This document shows positions 18,075-34,000 of a stretch of DNA of 41,026 nt, piece by piece. The position numbers and the translations under genes are program-made. Positions within the stretch are counted from its first letter, which is position 1, and each line of letters opens with the position of its first letter. This stretch comes from Saprospiraceae bacterium (GTDB lineage: Bacteria; Bacteroidota; Bacteroidia; Chitinophagales; Saprospiraceae). The notes under the pieces were generated by a model. The model did no database searches. It saw only the letters and a program-made list of their open reading frames with translations, and had not been told where the DNA came from. The stretch spans positions 1 through 41,026 of the forward strand of contig JBMLQR010000315.1 of assembly GCA_049241465.1 (NCBI GenBank), written 5' to 3'.

Positions 18075-18088
18075 CGTAACTTAATTTG

Positions 18089-18502: not shown

Positions 18503-18504
18503 AT

Positions 18505-18795
18505 TTATCCTCCTATGATTACAGTTGGGCACCCCAAAACAATACTACCACCGTGTGCACAAGTATCACCCATTCTTGCAGCAGGTTTATTTCCAAACAA
18601 TACAGTTGCTGAACCTTTCATAATAGAATCAGGAGGTCCAACACAAACAGCTGAGTCCCCCATAATGGCAGCAGGTAAAAAAGAAATTAGTACAGTAGGC
18701 GATCCTGGTCCAATAATCGGACCGCCAACATGCGGGATTGGCCCAGTGGTCATTGGGCAAACGTGCAAATCAGTAATTCTAGCTGCTAATGGCAT
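18505..18795 (-). CDS. PAAR-domain spike-tip protein (Afp10-like), with no extension domain
   Basis: 96-aa Gly/Pro-rich ORF with PAAR-type repeats (LPAAIMGDSAVC, KPAARMGDTCAHGG). It lies immediately downstream of the spike gene. Confidence 0.9.
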   Translation of the reverse strand: MPLAARITDLHVCPMTTGPIPHVGGPIIGPGSPTVLISFLPAAIMGDSAVCVGPPDSIMKGSATVLFGNKPAARMGDTCAHGGSIVLGCPTVIIGG

Positions 18796-18806
18796 ATTTG
18801 TCTGTT

Positions 18807-20615: not shown

Positions 20616-20624
20616 AATAATTAT

Positions 20625-21317
20625 TTATTTTTCCAATGGTGGAAATAATAATTTTTCTCCAAGTTTAAGTCTTCTAAAAGATGGCAGATTATTGATTTCT
20701 GCAATTTTCAAGTAATATTTTTTATCACTGTAAAATTCTTTACACAATGCTGGAATAGAATCTCCTACTTTAATAGTAGGAATTCTGGTAATATCAGGAC
20801 TTTGAAATTTTGATTCTATAACATTTTGATCGATGAATTCTTCGATTTTTATAGAAATATCAGCACGAACAGCTTTACCTTCTGAATTAAAATAGGTGTA
20901 TTCTATCCCTAATTCACCTACAAAGCCTTTCAATGAAATATCCCCCCAAATTAAATGTACGTAGGGTGGCATGTGTGTGGAACGAAGAGGGTTTATAGTT
21001 ACTTCTTTTAACTTTTTAATAGAATCTTCCAACCCTGAAAAATAATTTATTTCAGAAGACGTCATTCCATCGGGAACACTTGGAATAACACCAGTTAAAT
21101 CCAGTGTAAAATTGAATGATACGGATTCCTTAAAGTAAGTAAAGAGTTTAGGTGGAATAGCTCCCCCATTAGCACTTTTTGGTTCAATCCCTTCGAAATC
21201 ATCTTTTCCGTAACTACATACCACACTTCCAGGATTTATTTGGAGTTGATAGGTACCTAATAATTCTGTATATGCTAAACTTGAATAGGCCTTAATTGAA
21301 AGATTAGATGGAAACAT
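20625..21317 (-). CDS. LysM-domain tube-initiator / baseplate hub protein (Afp7/Pvc7-like)
   Basis: 230-aa ORF with a C-terminal LysM motif (IKVGDSIPALCKEFYSDKKYYLKIAEINNLPSFRRLKLGEKLLFP). Its position between the tube and spike genes matches afp7. Confidence 0.75.
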   Translation of the reverse strand: MFPSNLSIKAYSSLAYTELLGTYQLQINPGSVVCSYGKDDFEGIEPKSANGGAIPPKLFTYFKESVSFNFTLDLTGVIPSVPDGMTSSEINYFSGLEDSIKKLKEVTINPLRSTHMPPYVHLIWGDISLKGFVGELGIEYTYFNSEGKAVRADISIKIEEFIDQNVIESKFQSPDITRIPTIKVGDSIPALCKEFYSDKKYYLKIAEINNLPSFRRLKLGEKLLFPPLEK

Positions 21318-21514
21318 TATAAATTTGTTTGAGATTTAATTTGCTCCATAACCCTCCTTACTACCTCGTTTATAAGTTCCTCCTTTTCGTAAAATCCTAA
21401 GGTATCCTTTGATTTATTTTTTGAATTTTGAGAATTACTCTCCGATACTGATTTTTCTCCAGCTTGGTCTTTAACATTTGCTTTTACGACTAATTGTCTT
21501 ATTTCAACTGGCAT
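21317..21514 (-). CDS. Small conserved CIS protein (Afp6 position; DUF5908-like)
   Basis: 65-aa ORF. The N-terminus MPVEIRQLVVKANV matches my recollection of the MP(I/V)EIR.L motif of small Bacteroidota CIS proteins. Its TAA stop overlaps the next ATG by 1 nt (TAATG), which implies translational coupling. Confidence 0.5.
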   Translation of the reverse strand: MPVEIRQLVVKANVKDQAGEKSVSESNSQNSKNKSKDTLGFYEKEELINEVVRRVMEQIKSQTNL

Positions 21515-21517
21515 TGG

Positions 21518-21997
21518 TCAATATATTCTGGAATAATAAGAATAACTAAATTCTATGGACTCAAAAGCATACTTTGAATCTTGAGCATCAAAGTCACTGA
21601 TAGTCCATTTTGTAGGATAGGCATTGTAAAATCCCCAAGTCATAGAAGGTTCTAAAGTATTCGGGTCAAGTAAAAAAACCTTGATCAAAGCTGTTTTAAT
21701 TCCTCCCATTGACATTGATATAGAATTAGTACACCAATCAGTTAATGGTGATGATTCTGCTACTATTCCACGCTCCAATACCAACGGACTATAGGTTACT
21801 TCTGTTGGAAGGTGATAAGTTGTCCTATTACCCGAACCTGCCTGTAAGGCTTTTGTATTTCTGGTCGCGGAGATACCTGAAATTTTACTAAAATAATTAT
21901 CTCCGATTAAAGGTACATCATTTCCAGAAACTGTAGTTATAATCGAAACTGTGAAGTTGTACCCTGGTAGAGGTACTATTCTAGGTGAACCTAACAT
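21518..21997 (-). CDS. Tail tube protein paralog 2 (phage T4 gp19-like; Afp5-like)
   Basis: PLPGYNFTVSI ... ISGISATRNT ... YSPLVLERGIV ... LTDWC ... FESIEFSY fits the gp19/Hcp-like tube family. The ORF-track start at 22024 is TTG. I prefer the ATG at 21997 (MLGSPRIVPLPGYNF). Confidence 0.8.
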   Translation of the reverse strand: MLGSPRIVPLPGYNFTVSIITTVSGNDVPLIGDNYFSKISGISATRNTKALQAGSGNRTTYHLPTEVTYSPLVLERGIVAESSPLTDWCTNSISMSMGGIKTALIKVFLLDPNTLEPSMTWGFYNAYPTKWTISDFDAQDSKYAFESIEFSYSYYSRIY

Positions 21998-22030
21998 TAA
22001 AAGTATCTTACAGGTTTTAATCAATAAATA

Positions 22031-22073
22031 TAAAAAACTGAAATCCTAGGGAGATTTAACTCCTCTAGGATTT
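22031..22073 (-). terminator. Intrinsic-terminator-like hairpin plus T-tract between the two tube genes (candidate intra-operon attenuator)
   Basis: The minus strand reads AAATCCTAGAGGAG-TTAAAT-CTCCCTAGGATTT followed by CAGTTTTTTA. That gives 13 bp of pairing (9 + 4 with a 1-nt bulge), a 6-nt loop and a T6 tract. It lies 38 nt downstream of the tube-1 stop (22111). Confidence 0.5.
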
Positions 22074-22110
22074 AATTCATATATTTCACCACATTTCATT
22101 GGGTTATATA

Positions 22111-22581
22111 TTATGCTGCTTCAATGGTTATTCCCTCGCAAGCAAATACAATTGACTCAATTGCTGCGTCACTCGTTTGAGAATTCATATCAGTAGGTGT
22201 TATTTTTTTAGGAAACGCACCTGTTACAGTCCAAGTCATTTTAGGAGAAGCATCCTCATCTAATAATTTAATTACTAAGGTAAGCCTCTCGTAGGTATTC
22301 AACTGAATTTTAGTTAACCAGTCGTAGAAAGAATTATCAGTAGTAAATACCCCTTTCTTAAGGGTAATATCACCGTATTTCATTAATCCTGGCATTTTAA
22401 TTGTCGAATGCACTGGACTATTACCATGACGGTATTCTACTACATCAGTTTCAATATCTAAACCCGAAACTTCTTGAAAGGGGAGATCAGTCTGATCGCC
22501 TATATCAACAGAAAAATAAAATTTAGGTAACGGCCAATTTTGATCCTGATCTGCACCTGTACCCGGCGTTGGAGCTGCCAT
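22111..22581 (-). CDS. Tail tube protein paralog 1 (Afp1/Pvc1-like, Hcp-like)
   Basis: 156-aa ORF. NWPLPKFYFSVDIGDQTDLPFQEVSGLDIETDVVEYRHGNSP ... GDITLKKGVF ... FYDW is the classic conserved phage-tail-region tube signature. Confidence 0.9.
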   Translation of the reverse strand: MAAPTPGTGADQDQNWPLPKFYFSVDIGDQTDLPFQEVSGLDIETDVVEYRHGNSPVHSTIKMPGLMKYGDITLKKGVFTTDNSFYDWLTKIQLNTYERLTLVIKLLDEDASPKMTWTVTGAFPKKITPTDMNSQTSDAAIESIVFACEGITIEAA

Positions 22582-22612: not shown

Positions 22613-24112
22613 TTATGATTTTTGCTGTTGTTGTTGGAACGTAATAACGATAAACTCAGCAGGACGTACTATCGCAACTTTGACAGTTAATTTTAACATA
22701 CCGTCTAAAATATCATTTGCTGTCATCGTTGATCCTAATCCAATTTCTACAGAAAATGCATCGGTTGGCGTACTACCTGCAAGGAGACCACCTTGCCACT
22801 GATTATTAAGGAAATTCTCAATAGTTGCCTTAATTGAAATCCATGTAGTGGCTGTATTTGGTTCGAAAACATATCTTTCAGATGCAATTTTTATACTTTG
22901 CTCAAGAAATGTCATGGTTCTCCTAACAGAAATATATCGCCAATCTTGACTATTACCGTCTAATGTCCTTGCTCCCCAAACGATAGTACCCTTCCCTGTA
23001 AAGGCTCGTATTGCATTGATTGCTTTGCCATTTAATGGAAGATTTAATTCTTCTTGTGCTTCATTTGTAATGTTGATAGCTGGCGAAATTACATTTCCAA
23101 CACTTACATTCGCAGGAGATTTTGCAATGTTTATAGAATTATCAACCATAGCATATACCCCTGCCATAGCGGCACTTGGTGGCAATACATTTAAAATTTC
23201 ACGCATATCACTAAGAATGCTCTTAAAAGTAGGACTAATCACTTTCAGGGTGTCACTTAAAAGAAGTATTTCAACCGCGGTTGAAGCTGTTGCAATTTTT
23301 GCAATTTCTGCTTTTATTAGTTCTGCCCGCGATTCTCTGACCAAACCTGCTGCCACACCATCAACCACCTCTTTTGTTAATATTTCAATAAGCCCATCTT
23401 TATTGCTAATATTAGTGAAATCAACATCTGTGGACTGAACAACGGTTGTTTTTAAAAACGGATAATAAGCTGCACCCCATTGAAGAAAGTTAGCGCCTAC
23501 ACCTTCACGAAACTTATTGATTACGTCCTCATCATCAAATGTTCTTTCTTTATCACCATTAAAAACATCTAAAATAGCAAAACGATTCTTCATGGTGTAG
23601 CCACAATGAAGTAACATAGCTTGTTGAAGAGCTGAACAATCAGATTCTTCTAGTAAAACAGCTTCTGGAATAACTAATAAAGTTGGTTCCATGTATTTCA
23701 AAAGAGTTACTAATCCCTTTCCATTTGCAGGATCATTGAAATCAATGGCCTTTATTCCGTTTCCATAATTTCCAATAGAAACCACGTAACAATCTCCACC
23801 ACCATTAGAATAAAAATGTCTTAAACAACTGTGCAAAAGATATCTTGTTGCTTGATCCGCAGACAAAGTGTAACCAACATTTTCGTCTGGTTCAATAGTG
23901 AATTTTGTTTTCGGTCCTGCACCAAACATTTCTTCAAATTCAGCTAATGAGGTTACTCTTGTTGGAATATTTGTAAGTGGCTTATTCCCTCTTGAAGCTC
24001 TCTGCGTATAGCCAATAAATGCTGGAATAGCAGTTGATACTGGAACTACAGAAGAGGAGAAAGCACTTTTTTCTTCGATATAAACTCCAGGTGTTGCTAA
24101 TACTTTTGCCAT
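22613..24112 (-). CDS. Contractile sheath protein (Afp2/Pvc2-like)
   Basis: 499-aa ORF. It has the N-terminus MAKVLATPGVYIEEKSAF ... IPAFIGYT and the C-terminal region INAIRAFTGKGTIVWGARTL ... WRYISVRR, both typical of the phage tail sheath family. It is the only sheath gene in the locus. Confidence 0.92.
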   Translation of the reverse strand: MAKVLATPGVYIEEKSAFSSSVVPVSTAIPAFIGYTQRASRGNKPLTNIPTRVTSLAEFEEMFGAGPKTKFTIEPDENVGYTLSADQATRYLLHSCLRHFYSNGGGDCYVVSIGNYGNGIKAIDFNDPANGKGLVTLLKYMEPTLLVIPEAVLLEESDCSALQQAMLLHCGYTMKNRFAILDVFNGDKERTFDDEDVINKFREGVGANFLQWGAAYYPFLKTTVVQSTDVDFTNISNKDGLIEILTKEVVDGVAAGLVRESRAELIKAEIAKIATASTAVEILLLSDTLKVISPTFKSILSDMREILNVLPPSAAMAGVYAMVDNSINIAKSPANVSVGNVISPAINITNEAQEELNLPLNGKAINAIRAFTGKGTIVWGARTLDGNSQDWRYISVRRTMTFLEQSIKIASERYVFEPNTATTWISIKATIENFLNNQWQGGLLAGSTPTDAFSVEIGLGSTMTANDILDGMLKLTVKVAIVRPAEFIVITFQQQQQKS

Positions 24113-24197: not shown

Positions 24198-25040
24198 TTA
24201 AATATAAATAAATTCTTGAACATAGAACTTTTCGGTTTTAATATCAAAGTTTACAGATCTTGGGTTTGGACAAGGCAAGCTCTTGATTAAGAGATTTTCA
24301 GTGTTTTTTCTATTGTTTAAATATAAGCCAAGCTGCTTATTTGGTCTTTCTTTAAGAGGTAATGTTTTTTCGGAAATAAATAAATACCCATCTTTTCCAT
24401 TGGGTAAAATGAGAGGTATAGGCTTTGTGAAAGTCATGCTATTTTTTTGACTTTTATCATAAATGTATAAACTCTCGATATCTTCCATATATTTGCCTGT
24501 ACCATATATATAATACTTCCAGTAAACATTTCTTTCTTTAAAATTAATAAAATGCCTTATTGGAAGAATTTTATTTTTTTCAGAGGAGGATAGTCCGAAA
24601 AGTTCATTTTCCTTGTTTAAACTTAAATTAATTTTACCATTAATTCCTGTTGTTGAATAGGATTCATTGCAGATGTCAAGGGTTACATTTTCATCAGCAT
24701 GTAATAATTCCCTTCCTGTTATTTGTTCTAATTTTATACATTGGTTTGAGATAAAAGGAAGCTCAGTGAAATTTAAAAATTGAGGGTTTTTATTTTTTAT
24801 CTTAAAATTTAATATTATTTCTCCGAGATAACAAAAATGATTAAAATCTTTATTTGCATCTATAATCAAAATTAATTTATTTGGTTCCTGTTTAACAATA
24901 ATACCATATTGTTTAATAGTTTGCATGGTCTCATTTTCAACTTCAAAAATGAAATCATTACACCTGTTATTGTAATAATAACCATGATTTATGGTAATGG
25001 AAAGTAGCTCCTGAAATTGTATGATATGATTTATTTGCAT
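24198..25040 (-). CDS. Hypothetical protein between the cap and sheath genes (CIS operon member, function unknown)
   Basis: 280-aa ORF with an ATG start. It has no signal peptide or TM segment and no motif I recognise. It is co-oriented with its neighbours, with 15-nt and 85-nt gaps. Confidence 0.6.
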   Translation of the reverse strand: MQINHIIQFQELLSITINHGYYYNNRCNDFIFEVENETMQTIKQYGIIVKQEPNKLILIIDANKDFNHFCYLGEIILNFKIKNKNPQFLNFTELPFISNQCIKLEQITGRELLHADENVTLDICNESYSTTGINGKINLSLNKENELFGLSSSEKNKILPIRHFINFKERNVYWKYYIYGTGKYMEDIESLYIYDKSQKNSMTFTKPIPLILPNGKDGYLFISEKTLPLKERPNKQLGLYLNNRKNTENLLIKSLPCPNPRSVNFDIKTEKFYVQEFIYI

Positions 25041-25055: not shown

Positions 25056-25601
25056 CTATTCAGGTGAAATTAATATGGGTATTATCTCCTCATTCATTGC
25101 ATATTGATTAAAATTAAGCATTCTGAATTTGTAAACAATAGAAGGTAAATATTTACCTCCAAGCATACTCCAGATATTACTTAATACAGCAAATTCTAAG
25201 TTAATTATTTCAACCGTTATTTTCTCTACTTCTGCAGGTAATGAAGGAGTATTTTGAGGATTAAAAGTATGTTGTCCTTGAAAAAAATAGATGACTGCAG
25301 ATAAAAACCTTAATCCTTCTCTATAATTATTTTGAGGAAAATTTGCAGCGAATAAAACATATAAATTAATGTAAATGGATGGATTTGAACCACCAAATTG
25401 ATTATAGCCAGTATTTCGTATTAATTTTTCTTCCTCCACATTAATTAAAGTAATCATTATTTTATTATCAATTTCTATGGAGGAAGCTCCGGAATTATTG
25501 GCAACGGAAGTGACAACAACTCTGTCTTCTGTTTCACCGAAAGAATTTTTCAAATACTCGTTTAACTGACTTCCAATAATTGGAATTACATTTTGGATCA
25601 T
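25056..25601 (-). CDS. DUF4255 / Pvc16 N-terminal-domain protein (tail terminator/cap, Afp16-like)
   Basis: 181-aa ORF. The pattern DRVVVTSVAN ... IMITLINVEEEKLIRN ... INLYVLFAANF matches my recollection of the Pvc16_N (DUF4255) family. Confidence 0.7.
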   Translation of the reverse strand: MIQNVIPIIGSQLNEYLKNSFGETEDRVVVTSVANNSGASSIEIDNKIMITLINVEEEKLIRNTGYNQFGGSNPSIYINLYVLFAANFPQNNYREGLRFLSAVIYFFQGQHTFNPQNTPSLPAEVEKITVEIINLEFAVLSNIWSMLGGKYLPSIVYKFRMLNFNQYAMNEEIIPILISPE

Positions 25602-25606: not shown

Positions 25607-25867
25607 TTATGGATTTCCTGAGGTTGCATCATTTACACCCACTAATTTTAATAATGCTTTGATTACTATTCTTACTATGTATACACACAGGAACATGACT
25701 AACCATCCTATCATAAATAGTTGAATAGTAAATACTTTTTCTACTTCATTCAATTTTGGATTTGAACTTGTGAGTTTAAATAGCATTAAAAACACAAATG
25801 ATAAGGGAACAGCTAAGATTGAAGCTATTATAAACCACATTAATTCCTTTAAAATTGTTTTTTTCAT
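25607..25867 (-). CDS. Small two-pass membrane protein (holin-like in size and topology; function unknown)
   Basis: 86-aa ORF with two hydrophobic helices (WFIIASILAVPLSFVFLMLF and FTIQLFMIGWLVMFLCVYIV) and a polar C-terminal tail. It lies 5 nt upstream of the cap gene. Confidence 0.6.
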   Translation of the reverse strand: MKKTILKELMWFIIASILAVPLSFVFLMLFKLTSSNPKLNEVEKVFTIQLFMIGWLVMFLCVYIVRIVIKALLKLVGVNDATSGNP

Positions 25868-25875
25868 GCTGATTA

Positions 25876-27615
25876 TTAAGGTCTTTTGGTATTAGAAGTA
25901 AGCTGTATTTTTTGAATGAAATAAAATACAAAGGCACCAAAAATAAAAGCAATAAGTAAGGATATGCGCTCGTCAGTAAACCAGTTCATGATACTTAATA
26001 AGGGCACTAATAACAAAGTCATTATCAACATAAACAGGTATCTGAAGAATTGCTGGCCTAAAATTCCAGTCCTTACTCGCCAATCTGCAAAAGCTATGAC
26101 CCAACCAATAATCACACTTAAAGCAAATAATAAATAAGTTAATGTTAATATATCTCTGTATTTGAGCATAAAACTACCCATGGAAACAGGAAATCCTTCC
26201 GCTTCATTTATTGGATTAACTACACCAGTGGTATCAGAGGTAAATCTATTATCTATAAGTTGCCATAGATCAGTATACCCATTGTCATATCCTAAAGCCC
26301 AGATTCCTACCCCTTTTAACCCATAACTTAAGGCTAAATTATACTTTTTCTCTAAGGTGGATGCATTGTCATACCAGCATTCTACAGAAGTACTATCACC
26401 AAATTCAAGAAAAAAATAATTGGTCATACTTACAAAATCATATTGTGGAGTATACGTTGTTCCATATAAATTCATCACCTCACGATAGGGAACATCCTTG
26501 TCAAAATAAGTATCATAAACCCCTTTACTATTTATTTTCCCTTTCCATTGAGCGCCATAATAGGGCAAAGCCAAAACTGTTTTCCCTACATCCAGTTGGT
26601 TTTTAACATAATAATCAAGGGTGCTTTGTAAACTTATTCCATTTCTATTGGTAGTTCTTAAAGGGGACACAGCACCTGTGATTCCTTTCCCTTTATGATA
26701 ATCATATCCCATTATGACCATTAAATCTACAAGTTCTCCGAGTTTTACATGGTCAAATGCATCCCGAGTGCTGTAGGAGGGTAGGGTAATGGAAAGAAAA
26801 ACCTTTCCACCCGGCATTTTATTTGAAAGATTAGTACGCAAAAGAGTTACAAAATTAACCAAAGATTCTTTATGCTTTTCTGGTACATTTTCAAAATTCA
26901 AATCTACACCATCTGCATTTCTTGCAATAATTAAACTTGCAATACTATCTGTAAAAGTATTCCAAGCCGCAGGACTTGATAAAAATCTATCATTTTCGGC
27001 TACACCATGACTCGCCATACTTAATAATACCCGCGTTCCATTTGCTTTGGCAGTATCAATCATTGAGGTTGTTCTCCATTCTTGTATTTGGGCTGGATTG
27101 GAATAAGATCCAGTTTCCGGATCAACAATGTAAGCAAAATAGGCAATGGTGCTCAATAAAGAAAAATCATAAGATTCCCAGGCTGATCCCATCCAATGAG
27201 GATGCCAGCCAAAAACTTCATATTTTTTACTTAATTTTCTGTTCGTTGGACTTTTGATAAAATATATCTGTTGTACTGAATCCCAGTAAAAATTATTAGC
27301 TTTTAATTTATTTGGGTTATTAGGATTTAAAAAATCATATAGGTAACCATATCTTCGGAGCATATTCTGTTGTTCCGGAGTGGCTAATCCTTCCTTCATT
27401 TTTATTGAATCCTCCTCAGTGGGTTTCTCATCTTCCATGCCAAGGGCACTTTTTATCTTCGAGGCATCTTTATTCATGTAGCGCAGGGTTGATTCTGTCT
27501 GCCTGGTGCTTTTCTTTGCCTTAAAATAAGTATCTTTCGCTCCGCAATTAAACAGGAATATACTAAGTAAGAAAAAATAGAATACAAATCTGTATTTTTG
27601 GATTTGATTGATCAT
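25876..27615 (-). CDS. Glycoside hydrolase family 18-like protein with an N-terminal signal/lipobox and three C-terminal TM helices
   Basis: 579-aa ORF. GH18 barrel landmarks are present: VFGWHPHW, ADGVDLNFE (a variant of the catalytic DxxDxDxE), MGYDYH and GVGIWALGYD. The N-terminus is FFLLSIFLFNCGAK, a possible lipoprotein signal. The C-terminus has three hydrophobic helices (ILTLTYLLFALSVIIGWVIAFA, FRYLFMLIMTLLLVPLLSIM, ISLLIAFIFGAFVFYFI). Confidence 0.8.
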   Translation of the reverse strand: MINQIQKYRFVFYFFLLSIFLFNCGAKDTYFKAKKSTRQTESTLRYMNKDASKIKSALGMEDEKPTEEDSIKMKEGLATPEQQNMLRRYGYLYDFLNPNNPNKLKANNFYWDSVQQIYFIKSPTNRKLSKKYEVFGWHPHWMGSAWESYDFSLLSTIAYFAYIVDPETGSYSNPAQIQEWRTTSMIDTAKANGTRVLLSMASHGVAENDRFLSSPAAWNTFTDSIASLIIARNADGVDLNFENVPEKHKESLVNFVTLLRTNLSNKMPGGKVFLSITLPSYSTRDAFDHVKLGELVDLMVIMGYDYHKGKGITGAVSPLRTTNRNGISLQSTLDYYVKNQLDVGKTVLALPYYGAQWKGKINSKGVYDTYFDKDVPYREVMNLYGTTYTPQYDFVSMTNYFFLEFGDSTSVECWYDNASTLEKKYNLALSYGLKGVGIWALGYDNGYTDLWQLIDNRFTSDTTGVVNPINEAEGFPVSMGSFMLKYRDILTLTYLLFALSVIIGWVIAFADWRVRTGILGQQFFRYLFMLIMTLLLVPLLSIMNWFTDERISLLIAFIFGAFVFYFIQKIQLTSNTKRP

Positions 27616-28799
27616 TCTGTATAAATTTTAAAATACTTAATAAGTGAGGGTATTTTGTTTATAACCTGTTCTGTGTAGGGTTTGCCTTCCAAATAAATGC
27701 TTTTGAAATATACAGTTTGTTCTGATACGCCATTGTTATTCAAGCAAGCCAAATATAAATATTTCTTTTGATATTTTGATGTCGCTTCCAAAATCTTGCC
27801 ATAATTGGGACCACTATTTATAGACAGGGAAAGTGAAGCAGGTGAAAATGATCCATTTCTTGTTAATTTCAAAGCATTTGATTCATTAACAAAAGCACAC
27901 GTTAATCCCTTTGGTTCCGAATAAGGTAAAAAATGAAGTTTACCCATAGCATAATCTGTCAGGGGATCTTTTGTAGATACCACTGATTTAAATTCATCTA
28001 TATTTTTCTGATTATATCCAATCCAATAAACCCATCCTTTCCCGTTTTTTGCTAAATCAAAGGGTATTGGAAATATAAAATAAGGTGTTTTTGTAAGATT
28101 CAATTTAGCGCCTATACTAAAGGATTGTTCTGAAAGAGGAAGGTATAATAACTCTTCTTTAGTAACCATCACTGTATCATTATGATAAAGCGTGTCCGTT
28201 GCCTCCTTGAGCATAACTTTTTTTTCCTGCTTTAAATTTCTTACAAATATCGTTGTTTTAAAGGGTAGAAAGTTTCTATTTGTAAGTTTAACGGTTATTT
28301 CTCCGGCTTCAATAGCAGGTATTTTAACGTAAATAGCTTTTTTCTTCTTTAATTTCAATCTGGAGTATAAAGGTGTTTTTCCTAAAAGAACCTCCACAGA
28401 ACTTAATTTTAAAATGGATTTATGTTTAATGTAAAGTTGAATGGTATCAGATTTATCTACCTGATAAACATACTCCAGTTTATCCTTTTTAGGTATTAAT
28501 ACCTTAACAGCTGGATAGGTAACAGAGTCCTTTATCGTTTTATTTATTAGCGATTTGATGTCATCTAATTTAAAATGCATGATTAAGGTATCTCCTGCTT
28601 TTAATCTCTCTTTAAGACTGTCTAAATTAACTTTTTTTTGAAGGGGATTTTTAATTTCCAATGAAGAAATTTCTTTTTCTGCTTTCGTAGTTATTTTGTT
28701 TTTTATATCATCCAGTTTTATCTGTGCCATAACAGACGAATAAATAAAAAAACAATAGAAGAAGATATAGCCAAATTTTTCAGGGAAAGAAGTGATCAT
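27612..28799 (-). CDS. Exported or membrane-anchored hypothetical protein
   Basis: 395-aa ORF with an N-terminal hydrophobic signal (GYIFFYCFFIYSSVMAQ). The rest is beta-rich and Lys-rich with no recognisable motif. Its stop overlaps the GH18 start by 4 nt (ATGA), and its start abuts the DUF4407 stop (TAAATG). Confidence 0.65.
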   Translation of the reverse strand: MITSFPEKFGYIFFYCFFIYSSVMAQIKLDDIKNKITTKAEKEISSLEIKNPLQKKVNLDSLKERLKAGDTLIMHFKLDDIKSLINKTIKDSVTYPAVKVLIPKKDKLEYVYQVDKSDTIQLYIKHKSILKLSSVEVLLGKTPLYSRLKLKKKKAIYVKIPAIEAGEITVKLTNRNFLPFKTTIFVRNLKQEKKVMLKEATDTLYHNDTVMVTKEELLYLPLSEQSFSIGAKLNLTKTPYFIFPIPFDLAKNGKGWVYWIGYNQKNIDEFKSVVSTKDPLTDYAMGKLHFLPYSEPKGLTCAFVNESNALKLTRNGSFSPASLSLSINSGPNYGKILEATSKYQKKYLYLACLNNNGVSEQTVYFKSIYLEGKPYTEQVINKIPSLIKYFKIYTE

Positions 28800-29891
28800 T
28801 TAAGCTTTTTTATTTAGAATCTGTTTGACTAATTTTTCTTGTAATTGGGCTAATTGAATAGCAGCCTCATCTTTAATCATTTTTTCATGAGATTGATTTT
28901 TCGATTCTTTTCTAAAAGAGGTGGTTTCTGAATTTTCGGGCATTGATTTTAATCCTGCTGTCAAATGATGTTCTTGAACCTGACCCATATAAGCAATTTT
29001 ATAAGGGTATTCCTTGCTTTGAAGTAAATGATCATAAGGTCCAATAGGCGCGAATAATTTGGATAGAATTGGCGCAGTTTCCAAGAAAATAAAAAGTAAT
29101 AAAATGCCCATGGAAGTGTTTCCTGAAAGCATGGATAAGGCTTCAAGTCTGGCTAATAAACCCTTGGAAAAATACTTTTTTAAGACCTCTTTTTCATTGT
29201 CTTTTTCAATATTCAACTTTACCTTTTCGTTTGAAAGTAAGGCTAGATTATGATTCATTTTTTGTTGAATCTCCTGATGTTCTTTTGTATAAGCTTCGTA
29301 TTTCTCTTGCTTTCTTAAGCATTCACTTCCTCTTCCAGAATTTCTTGTTCCACAAGTACCGTCACATTCACATTTATACTGAGCGTAATACAATTCTTTT
29401 AATTTAAAACTACTTTGAATCGACTTTTGATATTCATTTTCTTTCTTCTCAATATTCAGAATCTTTTCAATAAAAGACTTTTCAATTTTCATTAATTTTT
29501 CTCCTCTTATTTCTATTAATTTAAAATCAATTTCTGATTGGAATAATTTTAATTCCAATGGTTTGGAAATGACAAGAGCTATAAAAATAGCCATTAAAAT
29601 TCTTGGTAATGCTTGTAAAAATTCTTGAATTGATTTTCCCTTTTTCCGAAAACTTGAAACTAAAAATCTATCTAAATTAAAGATTAAGCCTGCCCATAGT
29701 AATGACAATAGCATGGATACAAAACCTTGCTGAAAAATAAGATGAAATGCAAAATAGGCTGATAGTCCAGCCATTAACGTGGTGAAATATACACTGGCTC
29801 CAATGCCAGCATATTTAATCTTCTCAGATTCAGGGCATTCTGACATAATGTCCTTACTTACACCTGCGGCAAAATGAAGAAATCTGGACAT
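28800..29891 (-). CDS. DUF4407-family membrane protein (TM - coiled coil - TM)
   Basis: 363-aa ORF. EKIKYAGIGASVYFTTLMAGLSAYFAF, LLWAGLIFNLDRFLVSS, a long coiled coil containing the Cys cluster KCECDGTCGTRNSGRGSEC, and a late TM helix (MGILLLFIFLETAPIL) fit my recollection of DUF4407. Confidence 0.6.
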   Translation of the reverse strand: MSRFLHFAAGVSKDIMSECPESEKIKYAGIGASVYFTTLMAGLSAYFAFHLIFQQGFVSMLLSLLWAGLIFNLDRFLVSSFRKKGKSIQEFLQALPRILMAIFIALVISKPLELKLFQSEIDFKLIEIRGEKLMKIEKSFIEKILNIEKKENEYQKSIQSSFKLKELYYAQYKCECDGTCGTRNSGRGSECLRKQEKYEAYTKEHQEIQQKMNHNLALLSNEKVKLNIEKDNEKEVLKKYFSKGLLARLEALSMLSGNTSMGILLLFIFLETAPILSKLFAPIGPYDHLLQSKEYPYKIAYMGQVQEHHLTAGLKSMPENSETTSFRKESKNQSHEKMIKDEAAIQLAQLQEKLVKQILNKKA

Positions 29892-29949: not shown

Positions 29950-30954
29950 TCATGGTCTTTTTTCAAAGAATTTTAAAAACGAAGGTAATTTTTTTGCTTG
30001 TTTTTGTGATGGTAAGGTTTGGTTACCTTGCAATATATAAAAATGGAGGATTGTTTTTTTAGTTTCAAAAATAGTTTTCCATGTAAAATGAAGAGATGAA
30101 TCTTCTTTAAATTGTATGTCTCTAAACCCATTAGCAGGTATTTCCCCCCATTTTTCCTCATTTAAAATACCCATCCTATCTGCTTCCCAATATAAACGAA
30201 GATGGCAAGCTGGCGGTATGGCATAGTGGAAGGGAATTTCAGGATGAGCATGAAGGGGAATATATTCTTTAAGTTTATCTGTAGAAATATATAAGGAAAA
30301 CGACAAGCCTAACGATGTCAATGCTTTTACAAAAATTCTTTTTTCTGAAATGGCATTATCGTTTTTGGCCTGGATAGAAAATAAATAATCCATATTTATT
30401 TGTACATCATAACTCCCTTTAGGGGGTAACCTTAAATTAAGTGGCATTAAAATAACGGATTCTGCCTGAAAAACCTCCCATGATAATGTAATTTTTTCTC
30501 CTGTTTTTACCCATTCCTTTGAGGCAGAAAGATGTATTTGGGGGTTTCCACTTTGATGAACAATAGGTTTTGATTCCGCTTTTAGGTCTTGAAATTTTAA
30601 TATTCCATTCGTTATTCTTGTAAGCAGGTCTGTATCAATTTCGTTTGTTAATTCAATGGCTGAAATATGGATTTTTTTATCAATGTTTATGAAATATCCA
30701 AATTTATTTTCATTATTAAAAGAACAATATATTTGACCCCCGCCTGCAGCAATACGAAGAAGTGTATTTGTTATTTTTATAGATTTATTTTCATTCTCCA
30801 TCAGAATAATTAGTTCAATAAGTATCCCTTTAGTTTGAAGATTAAAAAGAGAAACGGATAATTCATCCAATAAATGATAAGGAATAATTCCTTGGATATG
30901 AAATTGGCAAGAACGAAAAGCCAGCTTGATTTTATCGGTAAATAGGTCGCTCAT
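29950..30954 (-). CDS. Hypothetical protein, first gene of the CIS operon
   Basis: 334-aa ORF with an ATG start and no TM segment or signal peptide. The middle part (IHLSASKEWVKTGEKITLSWEVFQAESVILMP...YDVQINMDYLFSIQAKN) looks like an Ig-like beta-sandwich. I recognise no family. Confidence 0.6.
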   Translation of the reverse strand: MSDLFTDKIKLAFRSCQFHIQGIIPYHLLDELSVSLFNLQTKGILIELIILMENENKSIKITNTLLRIAAGGGQIYCSFNNENKFGYFINIDKKIHISAIELTNEIDTDLLTRITNGILKFQDLKAESKPIVHQSGNPQIHLSASKEWVKTGEKITLSWEVFQAESVILMPLNLRLPPKGSYDVQINMDYLFSIQAKNDNAISEKRIFVKALTSLGLSFSLYISTDKLKEYIPLHAHPEIPFHYAIPPACHLRLYWEADRMGILNEEKWGEIPANGFRDIQFKEDSSLHFTWKTIFETKKTILHFYILQGNQTLPSQKQAKKLPSFLKFFEKRP

Positions 30955-31075
30955 GATTCAGATTTATTCAGTTTATTTCGGATGACAAATAGGAAATTAG
31001 TCATTTATTTTCTTTAGTTTTAAAAAATTTTGTAAAGTAATATTAAATTGTATTTTTTTTAAATAAAAAACCTAA
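30955..31075. promoter_or_regulatory. Divergent intergenic region expected to hold the promoters of the CIS operon and of the NTPase gene
   Basis: A 121-bp, very AT-rich spacer lies between the divergent start codons at 30954 and 31076. It contains a direct repeat, ATTCAGATTT ATTCAGTTTA (30957-30976). I could not find a clean Bacteroidota TAnnTTTG -7 box, so the promoter positions are not defined. Confidence 0.4.
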
Positions 31076-34000
31076 ATGGCAACAATGGCCAAACTGAATA
31101 TACCTTTTGTCGGTAGCAGATCGTTTTATGAATCTGAACAAGCGTCATTTTATGGACGTATCAAACAAGTGGATGATGTTTTGTTGTTGTTACATAAACA
31201 TAAATTTATAGCATTAACCGGACAGATTGGTTCAGGTAAATCATCATTTTTAGATTCTGGTTTAATTCCCGCATTGAAAAAGGGACACAATGGACTTGCT
31301 GGGAAAGAATGGGTGATTTGTAAAACAAGGCCAGGTCAGGCTCCAATAAGAAATCTTGCTTATGCTTTGTCAGAAAATGATTTATTAAATCCAACCATTA
31401 AATCTACCCCTGAACAACATTTATGGATAGAGAAAAAATTAAAGGAAGGTATCTCTGGACTTGAAACCGTTTATCGACAATCTGAAATTTTTGGTAAGAA
31501 AAATTTAATGATTGTTATTGACCAATTTGAAGATTTATTTTTAAATACAGATCGCTATAATAACGCCGCTGCACTTAATGAAGATACAAATCAGTATATT
31601 AATTCCATCACAGGTGCTAATTTTGCAGAAGAAATTGCAGTGTATGTTGTCATCGCTTTAGGAACTGAAAATATTATTGATATCTCCCCATATCGCCGTT
31701 TACAGGATTTAATGAACCAAGGGCAATATTTACTTCCAAGAATTAGCGGCGTCGATTTAAAACGAATTATTTCGAATCCGTTAGTTGGTTCTAAAATTGG
31801 TGTAAGTCCTGAGTCTGTAGATACTCTTCTTGCACAATTTGGTTCTGATATGCGTTTGCTTCCAAACTTACAGTTTTTATTGTATAAAACCTGGTCTGTG
31901 GTGAAAGATAAGAATCAGGAAAATATTATTATTCAACCGGAAGATCTGGCAAACGTTGGAAATATCCAACATTGTTTTGCCTCACATCTTGAATTACATT
32001 ATGACCACTTGGATGAAAGAGGAAAACAAGTTTTCGAAAAATTATTTAAAGTTTTGGTCTCAACGGAATCTTTGGGTAAATTGACTCAGCCACGAACTTT
32101 GGCACATCTAAGCTCCATTTGCGAATCGTCATTAGAAGAAATTTCAACTTTACTTCTGCCTATTTCCCGAGGGGAGGAAATGTTTTTAGAGATTTTGCCT
32201 CCTGATATTTCTATGAATACTGACAATAGAAACTTTCAACTGCATAAAAATAGTCTGTTAGTTATAAAAAATGAAAATATTTTTATCCACTGGGATAGAT
32301 TTAGAACTTGGCTTGAACAGGAAAAAGAATCTAGAGAAATTTATAAAGGTCTTATTACAGATCAATTAAGGTATGATGAAGGGAAAACCTCTTTACTAAG
32401 ACCGCCCGATTTAGATTTTATATGGCAATGGTATCAACAAAATCAACCATCAAAAATTTGGGGGGAATTTCTTGTTCCGGGATATCAAAATGCAATTGAT
32501 TATCTGACCTTGAGCTATAATACCTATAAAAATGAGTTGTTATTAAAAGAAAATGCCAGAAAAAATGAGATAAAGAGATATCGAAGAAATATGTTAATTG
32601 GTGTTGTGGTTGGAATCGTTACCATATCTGTGGTTTCTTTGTTGGCAATCAATGCACATAATGAAAAGAGAATTGCTAATAGAGAAAGACTTGTTGCTAT
32701 AAAAGCTAAGGAAGATCTGGCCCAAAAAAAATTAATAGCTGACCAATTAAATAGGGATTTATTTGAAAGTAAGGATAGCATAAATCAAATAGTTACCCAA
32801 TTAAAAACCAAAGAAATTACAATTAATAAACAAAATTTATCGCTGGTTAAAAAAAGTAGTGATCTGGAAAAATCTTCTATAACGATTAAGGAACAATATA
32901 AAAATCTTGAGGCTCAAATTAAGGAAACAAAAATTGCCGTTACTAAAGCTGAAATTGCTAAAGAAAAAGAAATAGTAGCAACAAAAAAAGCAAAAACCAG
33001 GGAAGAGTTTAGCAATATTAAAAATCAACTGTTTCTATTGGTGGGTGAATTTTTAGCAAATGAAAATCCGCTTGAATTAATACCAAAATTGAATTCAAAA
33101 ATTAATGACTATAATGAAATTTCAAATGAAGTCGTTGGAACAATACAACCAAATAATACCCTTTTTCAAGTTTTAAATATAGCGACAACTAAATTAGAAG
33201 CTTTAAGAAATAAATCCTCCCAAATTTTAAAAGCTAAAGCCGGATTAAGAACTATTAGTAACCAGAATGGAAGCTTTTTATGCGGTGGTGACGATGGCTA
33301 TCTTTTTATTGGAGGTGGTAAAAATAAGGTGGATATAGGGGAACGAATTAGAGCAACTTTACCTTTAAAAAATGAGCCTTTTGCACTTATTGGAACGTTT
33401 ACTGGAGGAGTTTATGCTATTAATTCTGGTAAGGCTCCTAATAAATTATTAAATTCTTCTTCAAATATGCCCGCTGTTGCTTTACTAAATGCGTTTAAGT
33501 ACGGGGAATATTTACTTGCCACTCAAAATGAACTGGTGCTTTTCTCTTTGGAAAATGGAGTTATTTCTAAATCTATGCTTCGTGATAAATTATTATCGAT
33601 TGTCCCTTTAACTGATCAGAATAAATTTTTATTGTCAACTCAAAAAGGTCTTTATCTTTGGAAAACTTCGGGAGAAATTGAATCATTGATTCAGTTGGGG
33701 AGCGGCGAATTTTCAAATCCTGTTTCTGCAATGACTTTATCAAGAAATATTATTTCCTTTGGATTTCAAAATGGTAAAATTCTCTTGTATAATCTGAGTG
33801 AGTTTTTACAAAATGTTAGGATAAATCCAAAGGAAAAATTTGTTTTTCATCGCACAGATATTACTAAAATACTATTTTTTGAAGATAAATTATTTTCTTC
33901 AAGTCTGGATAAAACTGTTTATTTTGTTGACTTGAAGTTAGAAAATTCGGCAGCCTATGCAGTAAAATTGGTTGATAATAACAGCTGGGTCTGGGACATA

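What the first reader, a model, noticed from the sequence alone, without database searches (positions are those of the whole stretch)
25607..29891. Four-gene envelope module fused to the 5' end of the CIS operon
Directly upstream of the cap gene lie four genes: a DUF4407 membrane/coiled-coil protein, a signal-peptide protein of 395 aa, a GH18-like protein with an N-terminal signal/lipobox and three C-terminal TM helices, and an 86-aa two-TM protein. The junctions are TAAATG abutment, a 4-nt ATGA overlap, and 8-nt and 5-nt gaps, so the genes must be co-expressed with the CIS. There are two competing readings. (1) The module is an anchoring or trans-envelope complex that ties the baseplate to the inner membrane and peptidoglycan, analogous in logic to TssL/TagL or the anchors of T6SSiv and tCIS. 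(2) The module is a dedicated release cassette, with a holin-like small protein and a muramidase-like GH18 enzyme of the spore-cortex YaaH/YdhD type, that liberates particles by lysis. Neither reading is established for DUF4407 or for a TM-anchored GH18 protein.
Basis: inference. Interest (0 to 1): 0.75.

Follow-up and report, generated by a model that had tools for sequence, protein, structure and literature searches.

The report
Envelope module of a membrane-docked injection system
The genes ahead of this bacterial "nano-syringe" operon are a conserved set of membrane and cell-wall proteins that most likely dock the syringe to the cell envelope; one of them was described in 2025-26 in Salmonella, and the others look like undescribed partners.

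Summary
All four ORFs, their junctions and their domain calls are as described.

The module is real. In 65 of 72 informative species-level loci across Bacteroidota, the TM-anchored GH18 gene lies no more than 1.5 kb upstream of contractile injection system (CIS) genes. Gaps between the genes are a few nucleotides in more than 50 species.

The module is larger than reported. A 334-aa cytoplasmic protein is its usual first gene. A transmembrane nSTAND1-WD40 NTPase is divergently transcribed in about half of the loci.

The centrepiece is not new. It has the architecture of SalCis20 (Ejaz et al. 2026): a signal peptide, a SleL-like periplasmic domain and three C-terminal TM helices. SalCis20 is proposed to remodel peptidoglycan and help dock SalCIS to the inner membrane. 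The window's sheath, Cis11 and cap adaptor match SalCIS best among solved structures.

I found no description of DUF4407, the 395-aa double beta-sandwich protein, the 86-aa two-TM protein or the 334-aa protein as CIS parts.

I favour the docking/trans-envelope reading (about 0.55). AlgoCIS-type loci, whose particles are released, showed none of these families in the stretches examined. The lysis reading (about 0.2) is not excluded: the catalytic Glu is invariant, and one phage places a DUF4407 gene beside its endolysin.

The parts
31076..34129 (+). nSTAND1 NTPase, then one TM helix (about aa 505-527), a coiled coil and a WD40-like C-terminus. It is transcribed divergently from the module and is an associated candidate sensor or regulator.
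   Evidence: Pfam nSTAND1 8.5e-52. TM helix by hydropathy, KD 2.8. Found in the same divergent position in 25 of 54 loci.
30955..31075 (.). AT-rich 121-nt divergent intergenic region, the presumed promoter region for the module-CIS operon and for nSTAND1.
   Evidence: Sequence. The promoter assignment is an inference; Bacteroidota promoters are not covered by the sigma-70 scan.
29950..30954 (-). 334-aa protein with no TM helix or signal peptide (predicted cytoplasmic). It has an N-terminal alpha/beta region and two Ig-like repeats, and is usually the first gene of the module.
   Evidence: Its orthologue lies upstream of DUF4407 in 45 of 60 loci.
28800..29891 (-). DUF4407 membrane protein with four TM helices. 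A coiled-coil hairpin of about 140 aa lies between TM3 and TM4, with an invariant four-Cys knuckle at its tip. The hairpin is predicted to be periplasmic.
   Evidence: Pfam 1.5e-70. Alignment A5 shows invariant C174, C176, C180 and C191. Topology is inferred from the positive-inside rule. Present in 54 of 65 loci.
27612..28799 (-). 395-aa exported protein made of two beta-sandwich/jelly-roll domains. It overlaps the GH18-TM gene by 4 nt, consistent with translational coupling.
   Evidence: AF2 pLDDT 83.5. Foldseek finds no functional relative. It lies immediately upstream of GH18-TM in 62 of 69 loci. Only 41 clusters match it among 1.84 billion representatives.
25876..27615 (-). GH18-TM protein, Cis20-like. 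It has a signal peptide or lipobox, a helical linker, a SleL-like GH18 barrel with the motif D-x-x-D-x-N-x-E, and three C-terminal TM helices.
25607..25867 (-). 86-aa two-TM protein between GH18-TM and the cap gene.
   Evidence: It lies immediately downstream of GH18-TM in 60 of 73 loci. In L015 it stays with the cap operon.
25056..25601 (-). Cap protein (Cis16a, Pvc16_N).
   Evidence: Pfam 6e-31.
24198..25040 (-). Cap adaptor (Cis16b).
   Evidence: The only PDB sequence hit is SalCis16b, 9r9n_C, at 5.9e-11.
22613..24112 (-). Sheath (Cis2).
   Evidence: The best PDB hit is the SalCIS sheath, 9r9h, at 1.4e-155.
14295..18074 (-). Baseplate/cage protein Cis11.
   Evidence: The best PDB hit is 9rce_A, the SalCIS baseplate protein (SalCis11 by position and length), at 2.5e-88.
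13545..14288 (-). 247-aa fibre-like protein in the Cis13 position. In the SalCIS model, Cis13 is the proposed link between the baseplate and Cis20.
   Evidence: It matches the Bdellovibrio protein bd2133, 8ond, which I know as a trimeric fibre, at 8.9e-8. It is 32% identical to the gene in the same position in the SalCIS-like locus L085.
5489..22581 (-). The rest of the CIS operon: two tube genes, a 65-aa gene, CIS_tube, the VgrG-like spike, PAAR, gp25, Cis11, Cis13-like, Cis12 and the tape measure.

Best explanation
The block 25607-30954 encodes the envelope-docking module of a clade Ib contractile injection system of the SalCIS / T6SS-iv kind in a Saprospirales bacterium. The following account is inferred unless marked otherwise.

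The GH18-TM protein (Cis20-like) is exported by Sec. Its three C-terminal helices stay in the inner membrane, and its SleL-like domain binds and locally cuts peptidoglycan. It acts together with the exported 395-aa double beta-sandwich protein, to which it appears translationally coupled, and with the 86-aa two-TM protein.

In most Bacteroidota two more proteins are added. One is a DUF4407 inner-membrane protein that projects a Cys-stapled coiled coil into the periplasm. The other is a 334-aa cytoplasmic Ig-domain protein.

Together these proteins would open the cell wall and build a site on the inner membrane, possibly a complex spanning the periplasm. The baseplate would dock there through the Cis13 fibres and the Cis11 cage, so that the machine fires from inside the cell rather than being freed by lysis.

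Shown here: gene content, conservation of order and spacing, folds, predicted topologies, and absence of these families from the AlgoCIS-type stretches examined. Inferred: all physical contacts, peptidoglycan cleavage and the docking itself.
For: - Synteny: 65 of 72 informative species-level loci have a CIS gene no more than 1.5 kb downstream of GH18-TM, across Saprospiraceae, Flavobacteriaceae, Cyclobacteriaceae, Fulvivirga, Marivirga, Lewinella and Bacteroidales, down to 28% identity.
- In L058 and L071 the trio 395-aa / GH18-TM / 86-aa sits inside the CIS operon between the tube and spike genes. L079, which runs off its contig, starts the same way.
- Gaps are a few nucleotides in 51-59 of 58-64 junctions.
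- The GH18-TM fold is closest to SleL (Foldseek 4e-20), with three C-terminal TM helices. This is the architecture published for SalCis20.
- SalCis20 is membrane-localised in a signal-sequence-dependent way. SalCIS lies next to the inner membrane in cryo-ET, and no release was detected (PMC13266070).
- Among solved structures, the window's sheath, Cis11 and cap adaptor match SalCIS best. A Cis13-like fibre gene is present.
- The AlgoCIS orthologue locus L106 (sheath N-terminal domain 81% identical) has housekeeping genes upstream of the cap. None of the module families was found in L106 or in the other AlgoCIS-related stretches. AlgoCIS is free in the cytoplasm and is found in the supernatant (PMC8894135).
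- A relative in the same family, Aureispira, has a C6 trans-envelope complex whose proteins have not been assigned (bioRxiv 10.1101/2024.01.29.577165).
Against: - No direct comparison with SalCis20 was possible. PDB 9R9A is in neither PDB copy.
- Proteobacterial SalCIS-like loci have no module upstream of the cap. I could not see whether they have DUF4407, 395-aa or 86-aa genes elsewhere.
- I could not check whether Aureispira or Amoebophilus carry the module.
- The SalCIS docking model is itself a hypothesis.
- The catalytic Glu, Tyr and Trp are invariant, which would also suit a lytic enzyme.
- A Saprospiraceae subclade keeps the four-gene module with no CIS nearby.
- No protein-protein interaction was modelled.
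Confidence: 0.55

Rival explanations
1. The genes form a dedicated release cassette. The 86-aa protein acts like a holin, the GH18 domain degrades the wall, and DUF4407 (an inner-membrane protein with a periplasmic coiled coil) acts like a spanin or a lysis regulator. Finished particles are freed by lysis of the producer.
For: - The GH18 domain is closest to the spore-cortex lysin SleL and to YdhD. Its catalytic Glu242, Tyr304 and Trp439 are invariant in 78-81 orthologues.
- In one genuine phage contig (L094, with terminase and tail spike), a DUF4407 gene is followed by an 89-aa protein with a C-terminal TM helix and then by a GH25 endolysin.
- Lysis genes at the 5' end of a late operon are known from phage lambda (own knowledge).
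- No other lysis genes are visible in the window.
Against: - The enzyme has a Sec signal and three stable C-terminal TM helices, so it would reach the wall without a holin and could not diffuse.
- The released AlgoCIS type showed none of these families in the stretches examined.
- SalCis20 was overexpressed and purified from E. coli membranes, and no SalCIS release was seen.
- The 86-aa protein is 31-57% identical across families, with a weakly charged C-terminus.
- The phage DUF4407 proteins lack the Cys knuckle that marks the CIS subfamily, and the phage case is a single example.
- Position 240 is Asn, not the canonical Asp, in 70 of 78 orthologues. In chitinases that change lowers activity (own knowledge).
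Confidence: 0.2
2. The genes form an independent nSTAND1-centred envelope system, such as a conflict or stress-sensing system. It often sits next to the CIS island but is not part of the machine.
For: - In L004/L005, L019, L030 and L042 the unit nSTAND1 <-| 334-aa / DUF4407 / 395-aa / GH18-TM occurs with no CIS gene in the stretch seen, and L016-L018 and L020 carry the same module genes, also with no CIS gene. L004 shows 10 kb downstream.
- In L015 the unit is a separate, divergent transcription unit.
- nSTAND1 is described in the context of conflict systems (own knowledge; the search found only passing mentions).
Against: - 65 of 72 loci show direct same-strand adjacency with gaps of a few nucleotides.
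- The core trio is embedded inside the CIS operon in L058 and L071.
- nSTAND1 accompanies the module in only 25 of 54 loci.
- A protein of the same architecture is encoded in the nSTAND1-less SalCIS operon.
- PADLOC has no hit.
- The whole genomes of the CIS-less loci were not seen, so a CIS may lie elsewhere in them.
Confidence: 0.1
3. The GH18-TM protein only makes a transient hole in the wall during firing or assembly, like MltE or TagX for the T6SS. The neighbouring proteins regulate or inhibit it, and none of them anchors anything.
For: - Conserved catalytic residues.
- The 395-aa partner is exported, and its gene overlaps the GH18-TM gene by 4 nt, consistent with translational coupling. 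An inhibitor or activator might be arranged this way.
- The SalCIS authors themselves draw the MltE analogy.
Against: - Four or five conserved partners, including a 4-TM coiled-coil protein and a cytoplasmic Ig-domain protein, are more than a wall-cutting enzyme would need.
- This rival overlaps with the best explanation and differs only in denying a structural role.
Confidence: 0.1

Closest known systems
SalCis20 of the Salmonella enterica subsp. salamae CIS (Ejaz et al., Nat Commun 2026, PMC13266070; PDB 9R9A; called SalCis19 in the 2025 preprint)
   Same: - An N-terminal export signal, a large periplasmic SleL-like hydrolase domain and three C-terminal TM helices.
- Encoded in a clade Ib CIS operon that also has a Cis13 fibre and an extended Cis11 cage.
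- The window's sheath (1.4e-155), Cis11 (2.5e-88) and cap adaptor find SalCIS proteins as their best solved relatives.
   Different: - SalCis20 is 775 aa against 579 aa here.
- It is not upstream of the cap in SalCIS-like loci.
- No lipobox is reported for it.
- The paper does not mention DUF4407, 395-aa, 86-aa or 334-aa partners, or an nSTAND1 gene.
- Direct sequence or structure similarity could not be measured here.
Trans-envelope complex of the Aureispira T6SS-iv (Lien et al., bioRxiv 10.1101/2024.01.29.577165)
   Same: - The same bacterial family as the close relatives of the window (Saprospiraceae) and the same CIS clade.
- The complex has an inner-membrane part, a periplasmic part and an outer-membrane part, and has no TssJLM homologues. 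That is the kind of structure these proteins could build.
   Different: - The composition of that complex is unknown.
- I could not check whether Aureispira has these genes.
- Nothing in the module is predicted to be an outer-membrane protein, apart from a possible lipid anchor on GH18-TM.
SleL/YaaH and YdhD, GH18 spore-cortex peptidoglycan hydrolases of Bacillus (PDB 4s3j, 4s3k, 3cz8)
   Same: - The best structural and sequence relatives of the GH18 domain.
- The catalytic Glu and the substrate-cleft Tyr and Trp are conserved.
   Different: - The Bacillus enzymes are soluble proteins; SleL has LysM domains (own knowledge).
- They have the canonical D-x-E. Here 70 of 78 orthologues have N-x-E.
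- Here the domain is tethered by TM helices.
Wall-cutting accessory enzymes of the T6SS, MltE and TagX, and the anchors TssL/TagL
   Same: The logic is the same: a dedicated envelope factor lets a contractile machine pass or attach to the wall.
   Different: There is no homology, the enzyme class differs, and no OmpA-like or TssJLM-like domain was found.
Phage holin-endolysin-spanin cassettes
   Same: - A small TM protein, a wall hydrolase and an inner-membrane protein with a periplasmic coiled coil.
- In one phage a DUF4407 gene lies next to the endolysin gene (L094).
   Different: - The hydrolase here is Sec-exported and permanently anchored.
- The small protein is unusually conserved.
- The released AlgoCIS type showed none of these families in the stretches examined.

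Membership tests
Cis20 (SalCis20-type CIS membrane hydrolase) | N-terminal Sec-type export signal | tested here: met
   A hydrophobic N-terminus ends in LFNC (Cys24). Cys24 is at least 90% conserved in close clades, and distant orthologues have type-I-like signals. This was read from the sequence only, with no SignalP.
Cis20 (SalCis20-type CIS membrane hydrolase) | Large periplasmic domain with a SleL-like hydrolase fold | tested here: met
   Pfam GH18 7.5e-33. AF2 core pLDDT above 90. The Foldseek top hits are SleL 4s3k and 4s3j at 4e-20.
Cis20 (SalCis20-type CIS membrane hydrolase) | Three C-terminal transmembrane helices | tested here: met
   Hydropathy segments at 488-514, 522-548 and 549-572. 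AF2 helices at 487-509, 518-542 and 550-569. 58 of 71 orthologues score three segments.
Cis20 (SalCis20-type CIS membrane hydrolase) | Encoded in a clade Ib CIS operon with Cis13 and an extended Cis11 | tested here: met
   The gene sits at a different place in the operon than in SalCIS-like loci.
Cis20 (SalCis20-type CIS membrane hydrolase) | Detectable sequence or structure similarity to SalCis20 itself (PDB 9R9A), including the TM region | not testable with these tools
   9R9A appears in neither PDB copy. The SalCIS-like contigs could not be read as far as that gene.
Cis20 (SalCis20-type CIS membrane hydrolase) | Homodimer in the membrane | not tested
   No multimer prediction was available.
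Glycoside hydrolase family 18 (PF00704) | Match to the family profile above the curated cut-off, and a TIM-barrel fold | tested here: met
   115 bits against a cut-off of 29.6. Fold search.
Glycoside hydrolase family 18 (PF00704) | Catalytic motif D-x-x-D-x-D-x-E | tested here: not met
   The window has DGVDLNFE. Asn replaces the third Asp in 70 of 78 orthologues, while Glu is invariant. The fold and family membership stand, but the activity is uncertain.
DUF4407 (PF14362) | Match to the family profile above the curated cut-off | tested here: met
   238 bits against a cut-off of 31.3, covering profile positions 1-296 of 297.
Phage-type lysis cassette (holin, endolysin, spanin) | An endolysin that is cytoplasmic until holin action, or one with a releasable SAR anchor | tested here: not met
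   The protein has a signal peptide or lipobox plus three stable C-terminal TM helices.
Phage-type lysis cassette (holin, endolysin, spanin) | A small holin with a highly charged C-terminal tail | tested here: inconclusive
   The 86-aa protein has two TM helices with both ends predicted inside, but its C-terminus is weakly charged. It is 31-57% identical across families.
Phage-type lysis cassette (holin, endolysin, spanin) | Presence in systems whose particles are released | tested here: not met
   The AlgoCIS orthologue locus L106 and the other AlgoCIS-related stretches show none of the five families.
T6SS membrane complex (TssJ, TssL, TssM, TagL) | Homology to any of these proteins or to an OmpA-like peptidoglycan-binding domain | tested here: not met
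   No such Pfam or NCBIfam hit for any of the module proteins.

The most novel reading that the evidence does not exclude
The six proteins are the missing parts list of the C6 trans-envelope complex seen by cryo-ET in the Aureispira T6SS-iv. They are the 334-aa protein, DUF4407, the 395-aa protein, GH18-TM and the 86-aa protein, plus the transmembrane nSTAND1-WD40 protein. In this reading, DUF4407's Cys-stapled coiled coil and the double beta-sandwich protein form the periplasmic part around the wall-cutting Cis20. The 334-aa protein links the complex to the baseplate. The nSTAND1 protein senses an envelope or prey signal with its periplasmic propeller and licenses assembly or firing. That would be a membrane complex for contractile injection systems unrelated to TssJLM.
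Probability: 0.3. Interest if true: 0.8.

Novelty: new variant of a known kind. Interest (0 to 1): 0.55.

Why it matters
How T6SS-iv-like systems of Bacteroidota attach to and fire through their own envelope is open. They have no TssJLM, and the trans-envelope complex seen in Aureispira has no assigned proteins. The only candidate so far is SalCis20, with a hypothetical docking model.

This locus and about 65 related ones show that in Bacteroidota the Cis20-like protein comes with a fixed set of partners. These are an exported double beta-sandwich protein, a two-TM mini-protein, a DUF4407 coiled-coil membrane protein and a cytoplasmic Ig-domain protein. A transmembrane STAND NTPase often accompanies them.

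That gives a short, testable list of genes for deletion, pull-down and cryo-ET work. It gives a function-linked context to DUF4407. It may also provide a genomic marker that separates membrane-docked from released clade Ib systems.

Tried and rejected
- PADLOC, NCBIfam and PHROGs gave nothing useful for the module proteins.
- The literature search for DUF4407 gave three unrelated mentions.
- The word-indexed search with the 395-aa family returned only relatives at 64% identity or more. The exhaustive representative search supplied the diverse alignment instead.
- SalCis20 was sought in the PDB by profile, by the N-terminal piece, by the C-terminal piece and by fold. It was not found, and 9R9A is evidently not in the copies.
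- I tried to reach SalCis20 and the AlgoCIS locus through a two-seed sheath profile. The AlgoCIS sheath did not make the top 120, and the SalCIS-like contigs end before the gene. AlgoCIS-type loci were then reached through the metagenome scan.
- Foldseek of the 395-aa model against PDB and BFVD gave only generic jelly-roll or GOLD-like matches with TM-scores of 0.15-0.25 over the full length.
- Two viral scans for DUF4407 returned the same 8 contigs. Only one is a clear phage.
- I considered a u-spanin-like double tether (lipid anchor plus TM helices) as a general property and dropped it, because the lipobox is missing in the Cytophagia-type orthologues.
- I considered a DUF4407/395-aa gene fusion (P0382, 718 aa). 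It is only a longer 395-aa family member that follows a separate DUF4407 gene.


Full report
**1. What is in the window**

On the minus strand lie a 363-aa DUF4407 protein (28800-29891; Pfam 1.5e-70), a 395-aa protein with no family (27612-28799), a 579-aa GH18 protein (25876-27615; Pfam 7.5e-33) and an 86-aa protein (25607-25867). The Pvc16_N cap gene follows at 25056-25601. The junctions are an abutment, a 4-nt overlap, an 8-nt gap and a 5-nt gap.

Downstream is a complete contractile injection system (CIS) operon. It contains the cap adaptor, sheath, two tube genes, a 65-aa gene, CIS_tube, a VgrG-like spike, PAAR, gp25, a 1259-aa Cis11, a 247-aa fibre-like protein, a 924-aa Cis12 and a 1750-aa tape measure.

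Hydropathy and an AlphaFold2 model give three C-terminal TM helices for the GH18 protein. Hydropathy also gives two TM helices for the 86-aa protein and, with the alignment, four for DUF4407. The terminator scan is at chance level (8 found, 6.0 +/- 2.6 expected), and none of its sites lies in a junction.

One is a 334-aa gene 58 nt upstream on the same strand (29950-30954). The other is a divergently transcribed 1017-aa nSTAND1 NTPase (31076-34129), which carries one strong TM helix followed by a coiled coil and a WD40-like region. The CIS, the module and nSTAND1 share a lower G+C (0.27-0.37) than the housekeeping genes beyond 34 kb (0.38-0.42).

**2. Is the module real?**

The GH18-TM protein belongs to a family that is conserved over its full length. 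The 120 best database hits are mostly 555-589 aa long, 41-99% identical, and nearly all cover at least 92% of the query.

I scanned one genome per species (GTDB) with a profile of this family and obtained 79 loci. The closest, at 98% identity, is a Haliscomenobacteraceae MAG, which places the window in the Saprospirales.

I then searched the ORFs of all loci with iterated profiles for each module protein, and with tblastn for the CIS proteins.

| Feature | Loci |
|---|---|
| CIS gene on the same strand, no more than 1.5 kb downstream of GH18-TM | 65 of 72 informative |
| 395-aa family immediately upstream of GH18-TM | 62 of 69 |
| 86-aa family immediately downstream | 60 of 73 |
| DUF4407 within 2.5 kb upstream | 54 of 65 |
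| 334-aa family within 4 kb upstream | 45 of 60 |
| nSTAND1 in the divergent position | 25 of 54 |

The carriers span Saprospiraceae, Lewinellaceae, Flavobacteriaceae (Polaribacter, Psychroflexus), Fulvivirga, Marivirga, Cyclobacteriaceae, Flammeovirgaceae and Bacteroidales. GH18 identity falls as low as 28%. Median gaps are -4 nt (395-aa to GH18), 6.5 nt (GH18 to 86-aa) and 2 nt (86-aa to cap).

The variants are informative:
- In L058 and L071 the trio 395-aa / GH18-TM / 86-aa lies inside the CIS operon between the tube and spike genes, with no DUF4407 nearby. L079, which runs off its contig, starts the same way. So the trio is the core and it moves as a unit.
- In L015 the 86-aa gene stays with the cap operon, while the other four genes form a divergent unit.
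- A Saprospiraceae subclade (L004/5, L016-20, L030, L042) keeps the four-gene unit, in several of these loci with nSTAND1 upstream, but has no CIS gene in the stretch seen.

**3. The individual proteins**

*GH18-TM.* The AF2 model has a mean pLDDT of 77.7, and the barrel exceeds 90. It shows low-confidence helices at 26-96, the TIM barrel, and three TM helices. By sequence its nearest solved relatives are 4wiw, YdhD and SleL/YaaH. By fold the top hits are SleL 4s3k and 4s3j at 4e-20.

Across 78-81 orthologues, Glu242, Tyr304 and Trp439 are invariant or nearly so. The residue two positions before the Glu is Asn in 70 and Asp in 8. Four of those eight show a swapped DGVN(I/L)DFE motif. The site is therefore under selection and probably active or at least glycan-binding, but it departs from the canonical D-x-E.

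The lipobox Cys is confined to the Saprospiraceae and Flavobacteriaceae clades. Other orthologues have ordinary signal peptides.

*395-aa protein.* Only 41 clusters match it among 1.84 billion representatives. With those sequences as the alignment, AF2 gives a confident model (pLDDT 83.5). It has a signal peptide, a poorly defined helical stretch, and two beta-sandwich/jelly-roll domains with very long strands. Foldseek against PDB and BFVD finds only generic jelly-roll and GOLD-domain matches.

*DUF4407.* Four TM helices are conserved. A coiled-coil hairpin of about 140 aa between TM3 and TM4 carries an invariant knuckle, Y-x-CEC-x-G-x-CGT-x3-G-x-G-x-EC. The strongly basic TM2-TM3 loop places the hairpin in the periplasm by the positive-inside rule, which is an inference.

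*334-aa protein.* It has no TM helix or signal. After an N-terminal alpha/beta region it has two repeats with an Ig-like sequence pattern.

*86-aa protein.* It has two TM helices and conserved charged positions, and is 31-57% identical across families.

**4. What is already known**

The decisive literature hit came from the PDB search. The window's sheath matches the sheath of the Salmonella enterica subsp. salamae CIS (9r9h, E = 1.4e-155; about 50% identity by tblastn to a 94%-identical relative) far better than it matches AlgoCIS or the cyanobacterial tCIS. The cap adaptor matches only SalCis16b. Cis11 matches 9rce_A best.

Ejaz et al. (Nat Commun 2026, PMC13266070; preprint June 2025) describe SalCis20 in that operon. 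It has a Sec signal, a large periplasmic domain homologous to SleL, and three C-terminal TM helices. It was solved as a homodimer (PDB 9R9A) and is peripheral in cells only when the signal sequence is present. The authors propose that it remodels the wall, by analogy with MltE. They also propose that its TM helices engage Cis13 trimers bound to Cis11, so that SalCIS docks to the inner membrane.

They saw SalCIS next to a pinched inner membrane by cryo-ET and detected no release. They also define a "distinct cluster" of CIS that share these components.

The window has the same triad. Its 247-aa protein is fibre-like (bd2133) and is 32% identical to the gene at the same position in a SalCIS-like contig. 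A TM-anchored GH18-type protein in a clade Ib CIS is therefore published, together with the anchoring idea.

I could not compare the two proteins directly. 9R9A is in neither PDB copy, and the SalCIS-like contigs I could reach end before the gene.

In those proteobacterial loci, and in Nitrosomonas and a deltaproteobacterial MAG, the operon starts at the cap and has none of the module genes upstream. The 5' placement is therefore a Bacteroidota arrangement. I also found no mention in either version of the paper of partners resembling DUF4407, the 395-aa, the 86-aa or the 334-aa proteins. DUF4407 has only three incidental mentions in the searchable literature.

**5. Anchor or lysis?**

Three lines favour docking.

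- The published behaviour of SalCis20 and SalCIS points that way.
- The phyletic contrast points that way. AlgoCIS is free in the cytoplasm, never membrane-attached, and present in supernatants (PMC8894135), and its cluster is defined as starting at the cap. A metagenome scan with the AlgoCIS sheath N-terminal domain found an orthologous locus, L106, with 81% identity there, a 693-aa sheath, a 197-aa cap and a 286-aa adaptor. Its upstream genes are a DEAD-box helicase, DUF6909, MsrA, a radical SAM enzyme and a methyltransferase. None of the five family profiles hits L106 or the other AlgoCIS-related stretches. The released system therefore shows no sign of the module.
- The enzyme is Sec-exported and permanently tethered, which does not fit a holin-gated endolysin.

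In addition, Aureispira is a Saprospiraceae member with a T6SS-iv. It shows a C6 complex with inner-membrane, periplasmic and outer-membrane parts and no TssJLM homologues, and its proteins have not been assigned. The module is an obvious candidate, but I could not check that genome.

Two things keep the lysis reading alive. The catalytic Glu is invariant. And in one genuine phage contig (terminase, tail spike) a DUF4407 gene is followed by an 89-aa protein with a C-terminal TM helix and then by a GH25 endolysin. That is a single case out of eight viral-collection hits. The phage proteins also lack the Cys knuckle of the CIS subfamily.

The stand-alone modules in one Saprospiraceae subclade keep a third reading possible, in which this is an independent nSTAND1-linked envelope system. 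The embedded trio and the 90% adjacency argue against it.

**6. Verdict**

It is also larger than described. Its centrepiece is a Bacteroidota counterpart of a protein described in 2025-26, so the finding is not categorically new.

What appears new is the fixed partner set (the 395-aa double beta-sandwich protein, the 86-aa two-TM protein, the DUF4407 protein with its Cys-knotted coiled coil, and the 334-aa Ig-domain protein). The frequent transmembrane nSTAND1-WD40 neighbour and the contrast with AlgoCIS-type loci also appear new.

I rate docking/trans-envelope function at about 0.55, a lysis cassette at about 0.2, wall-cutting only at about 0.1, and an independent system at about 0.1. All mechanistic steps beyond gene content, conservation, fold and predicted topology are inferences.

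Noticed in passing
window 31076-34129 (+): An nSTAND1 NTPase with one strong TM helix (about aa 505-527), then a coiled coil and a WD40-like C-terminus. The propeller would lie outside the cytoplasm, making this a transmembrane STAND protein. It is divergent from the module in 25 of 54 loci. In L044, L045, L047, L065 and L072 it sits inside the CIS operon between the tube genes on the opposite strand.
   Followed up: partly
window 29950-30954 (-): A 334-aa predicted cytoplasmic protein with two Ig-like repeats.
   Followed up: partly
L094 7992-10007 (IMG/VR contig IMGVR_UViG_3300013772_000003): In a genuine phage contig (terminase, tail spike), a DUF4407 gene is followed by an 89-aa protein with a C-terminal TM helix and then by a GH25 endolysin. 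This is a second, independent pairing of DUF4407 with a wall hydrolase. It is a single example.
   Followed up: partly
L096 6810-8907 (Nitrosomonas sp. Nm51, FOGH01000004.1): In this SalCIS-like locus a Peptidase_S13 (PBP4-type DD-peptidase) gene ends 35 nt before the cap gene. It may be a different wall enzyme in the place where Bacteroidota have the GH18-TM module, or it may be coincidence.
   Followed up: no
L004/L005, L016-L020, L030, L042: A Saprospiraceae/Lewinellaceae subclade has the 334-aa / DUF4407 / 395-aa / GH18-TM unit, in several of these loci with nSTAND1 upstream, but no 86-aa gene and no CIS gene in the stretch seen. Whether a CIS lies elsewhere in those genomes is unknown.
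   Followed up: partly
window 25876-27615 (residues 235-242) and orthologues: The GH18 motif is D-x-x-D-x-N-x-E in 70 of 78 orthologues. Four of the eight exceptions swap the Asn and Asp (DGVN(I/L)DFE), which suggests a compensating pair.
   Followed up: partly
window 2662-5487 (+) and L004/L005 1-1056: A TonB-dependent receptor gene lies between the AAA ATPase (1191-2543) and the tape-measure end of the CIS. A Plug-domain receptor also flanks the nSTAND1 genes in the CIS-less loci L004 and L005.
   Followed up: no
window 1-41026: G+C of the CIS, module and nSTAND1 block is 0.27-0.37. The housekeeping genes at 34-40 kb are at 0.38-0.42. This is consistent with one island.
   Followed up: no
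L089-L093, L095 (IMG/VR contigs of 158-554 kb): DUF4407 matches (about 33% identity) lie where L089 shows no long ORF in the standard code, next to a TonB-dependent receptor gene; only L089 was inspected. Possible causes are recoding, a pseudogene or a misclassified bacterial contig.
   Followed up: no
PMC13266070, section on SalCis20: The paper calls SleL an N-acetylmuramoyl-L-alanine amidase. To my knowledge SleL is a GH18 N-acetylglucosaminidase. This matters for the chemistry one would expect from Cis20-type proteins.
   Followed up: no
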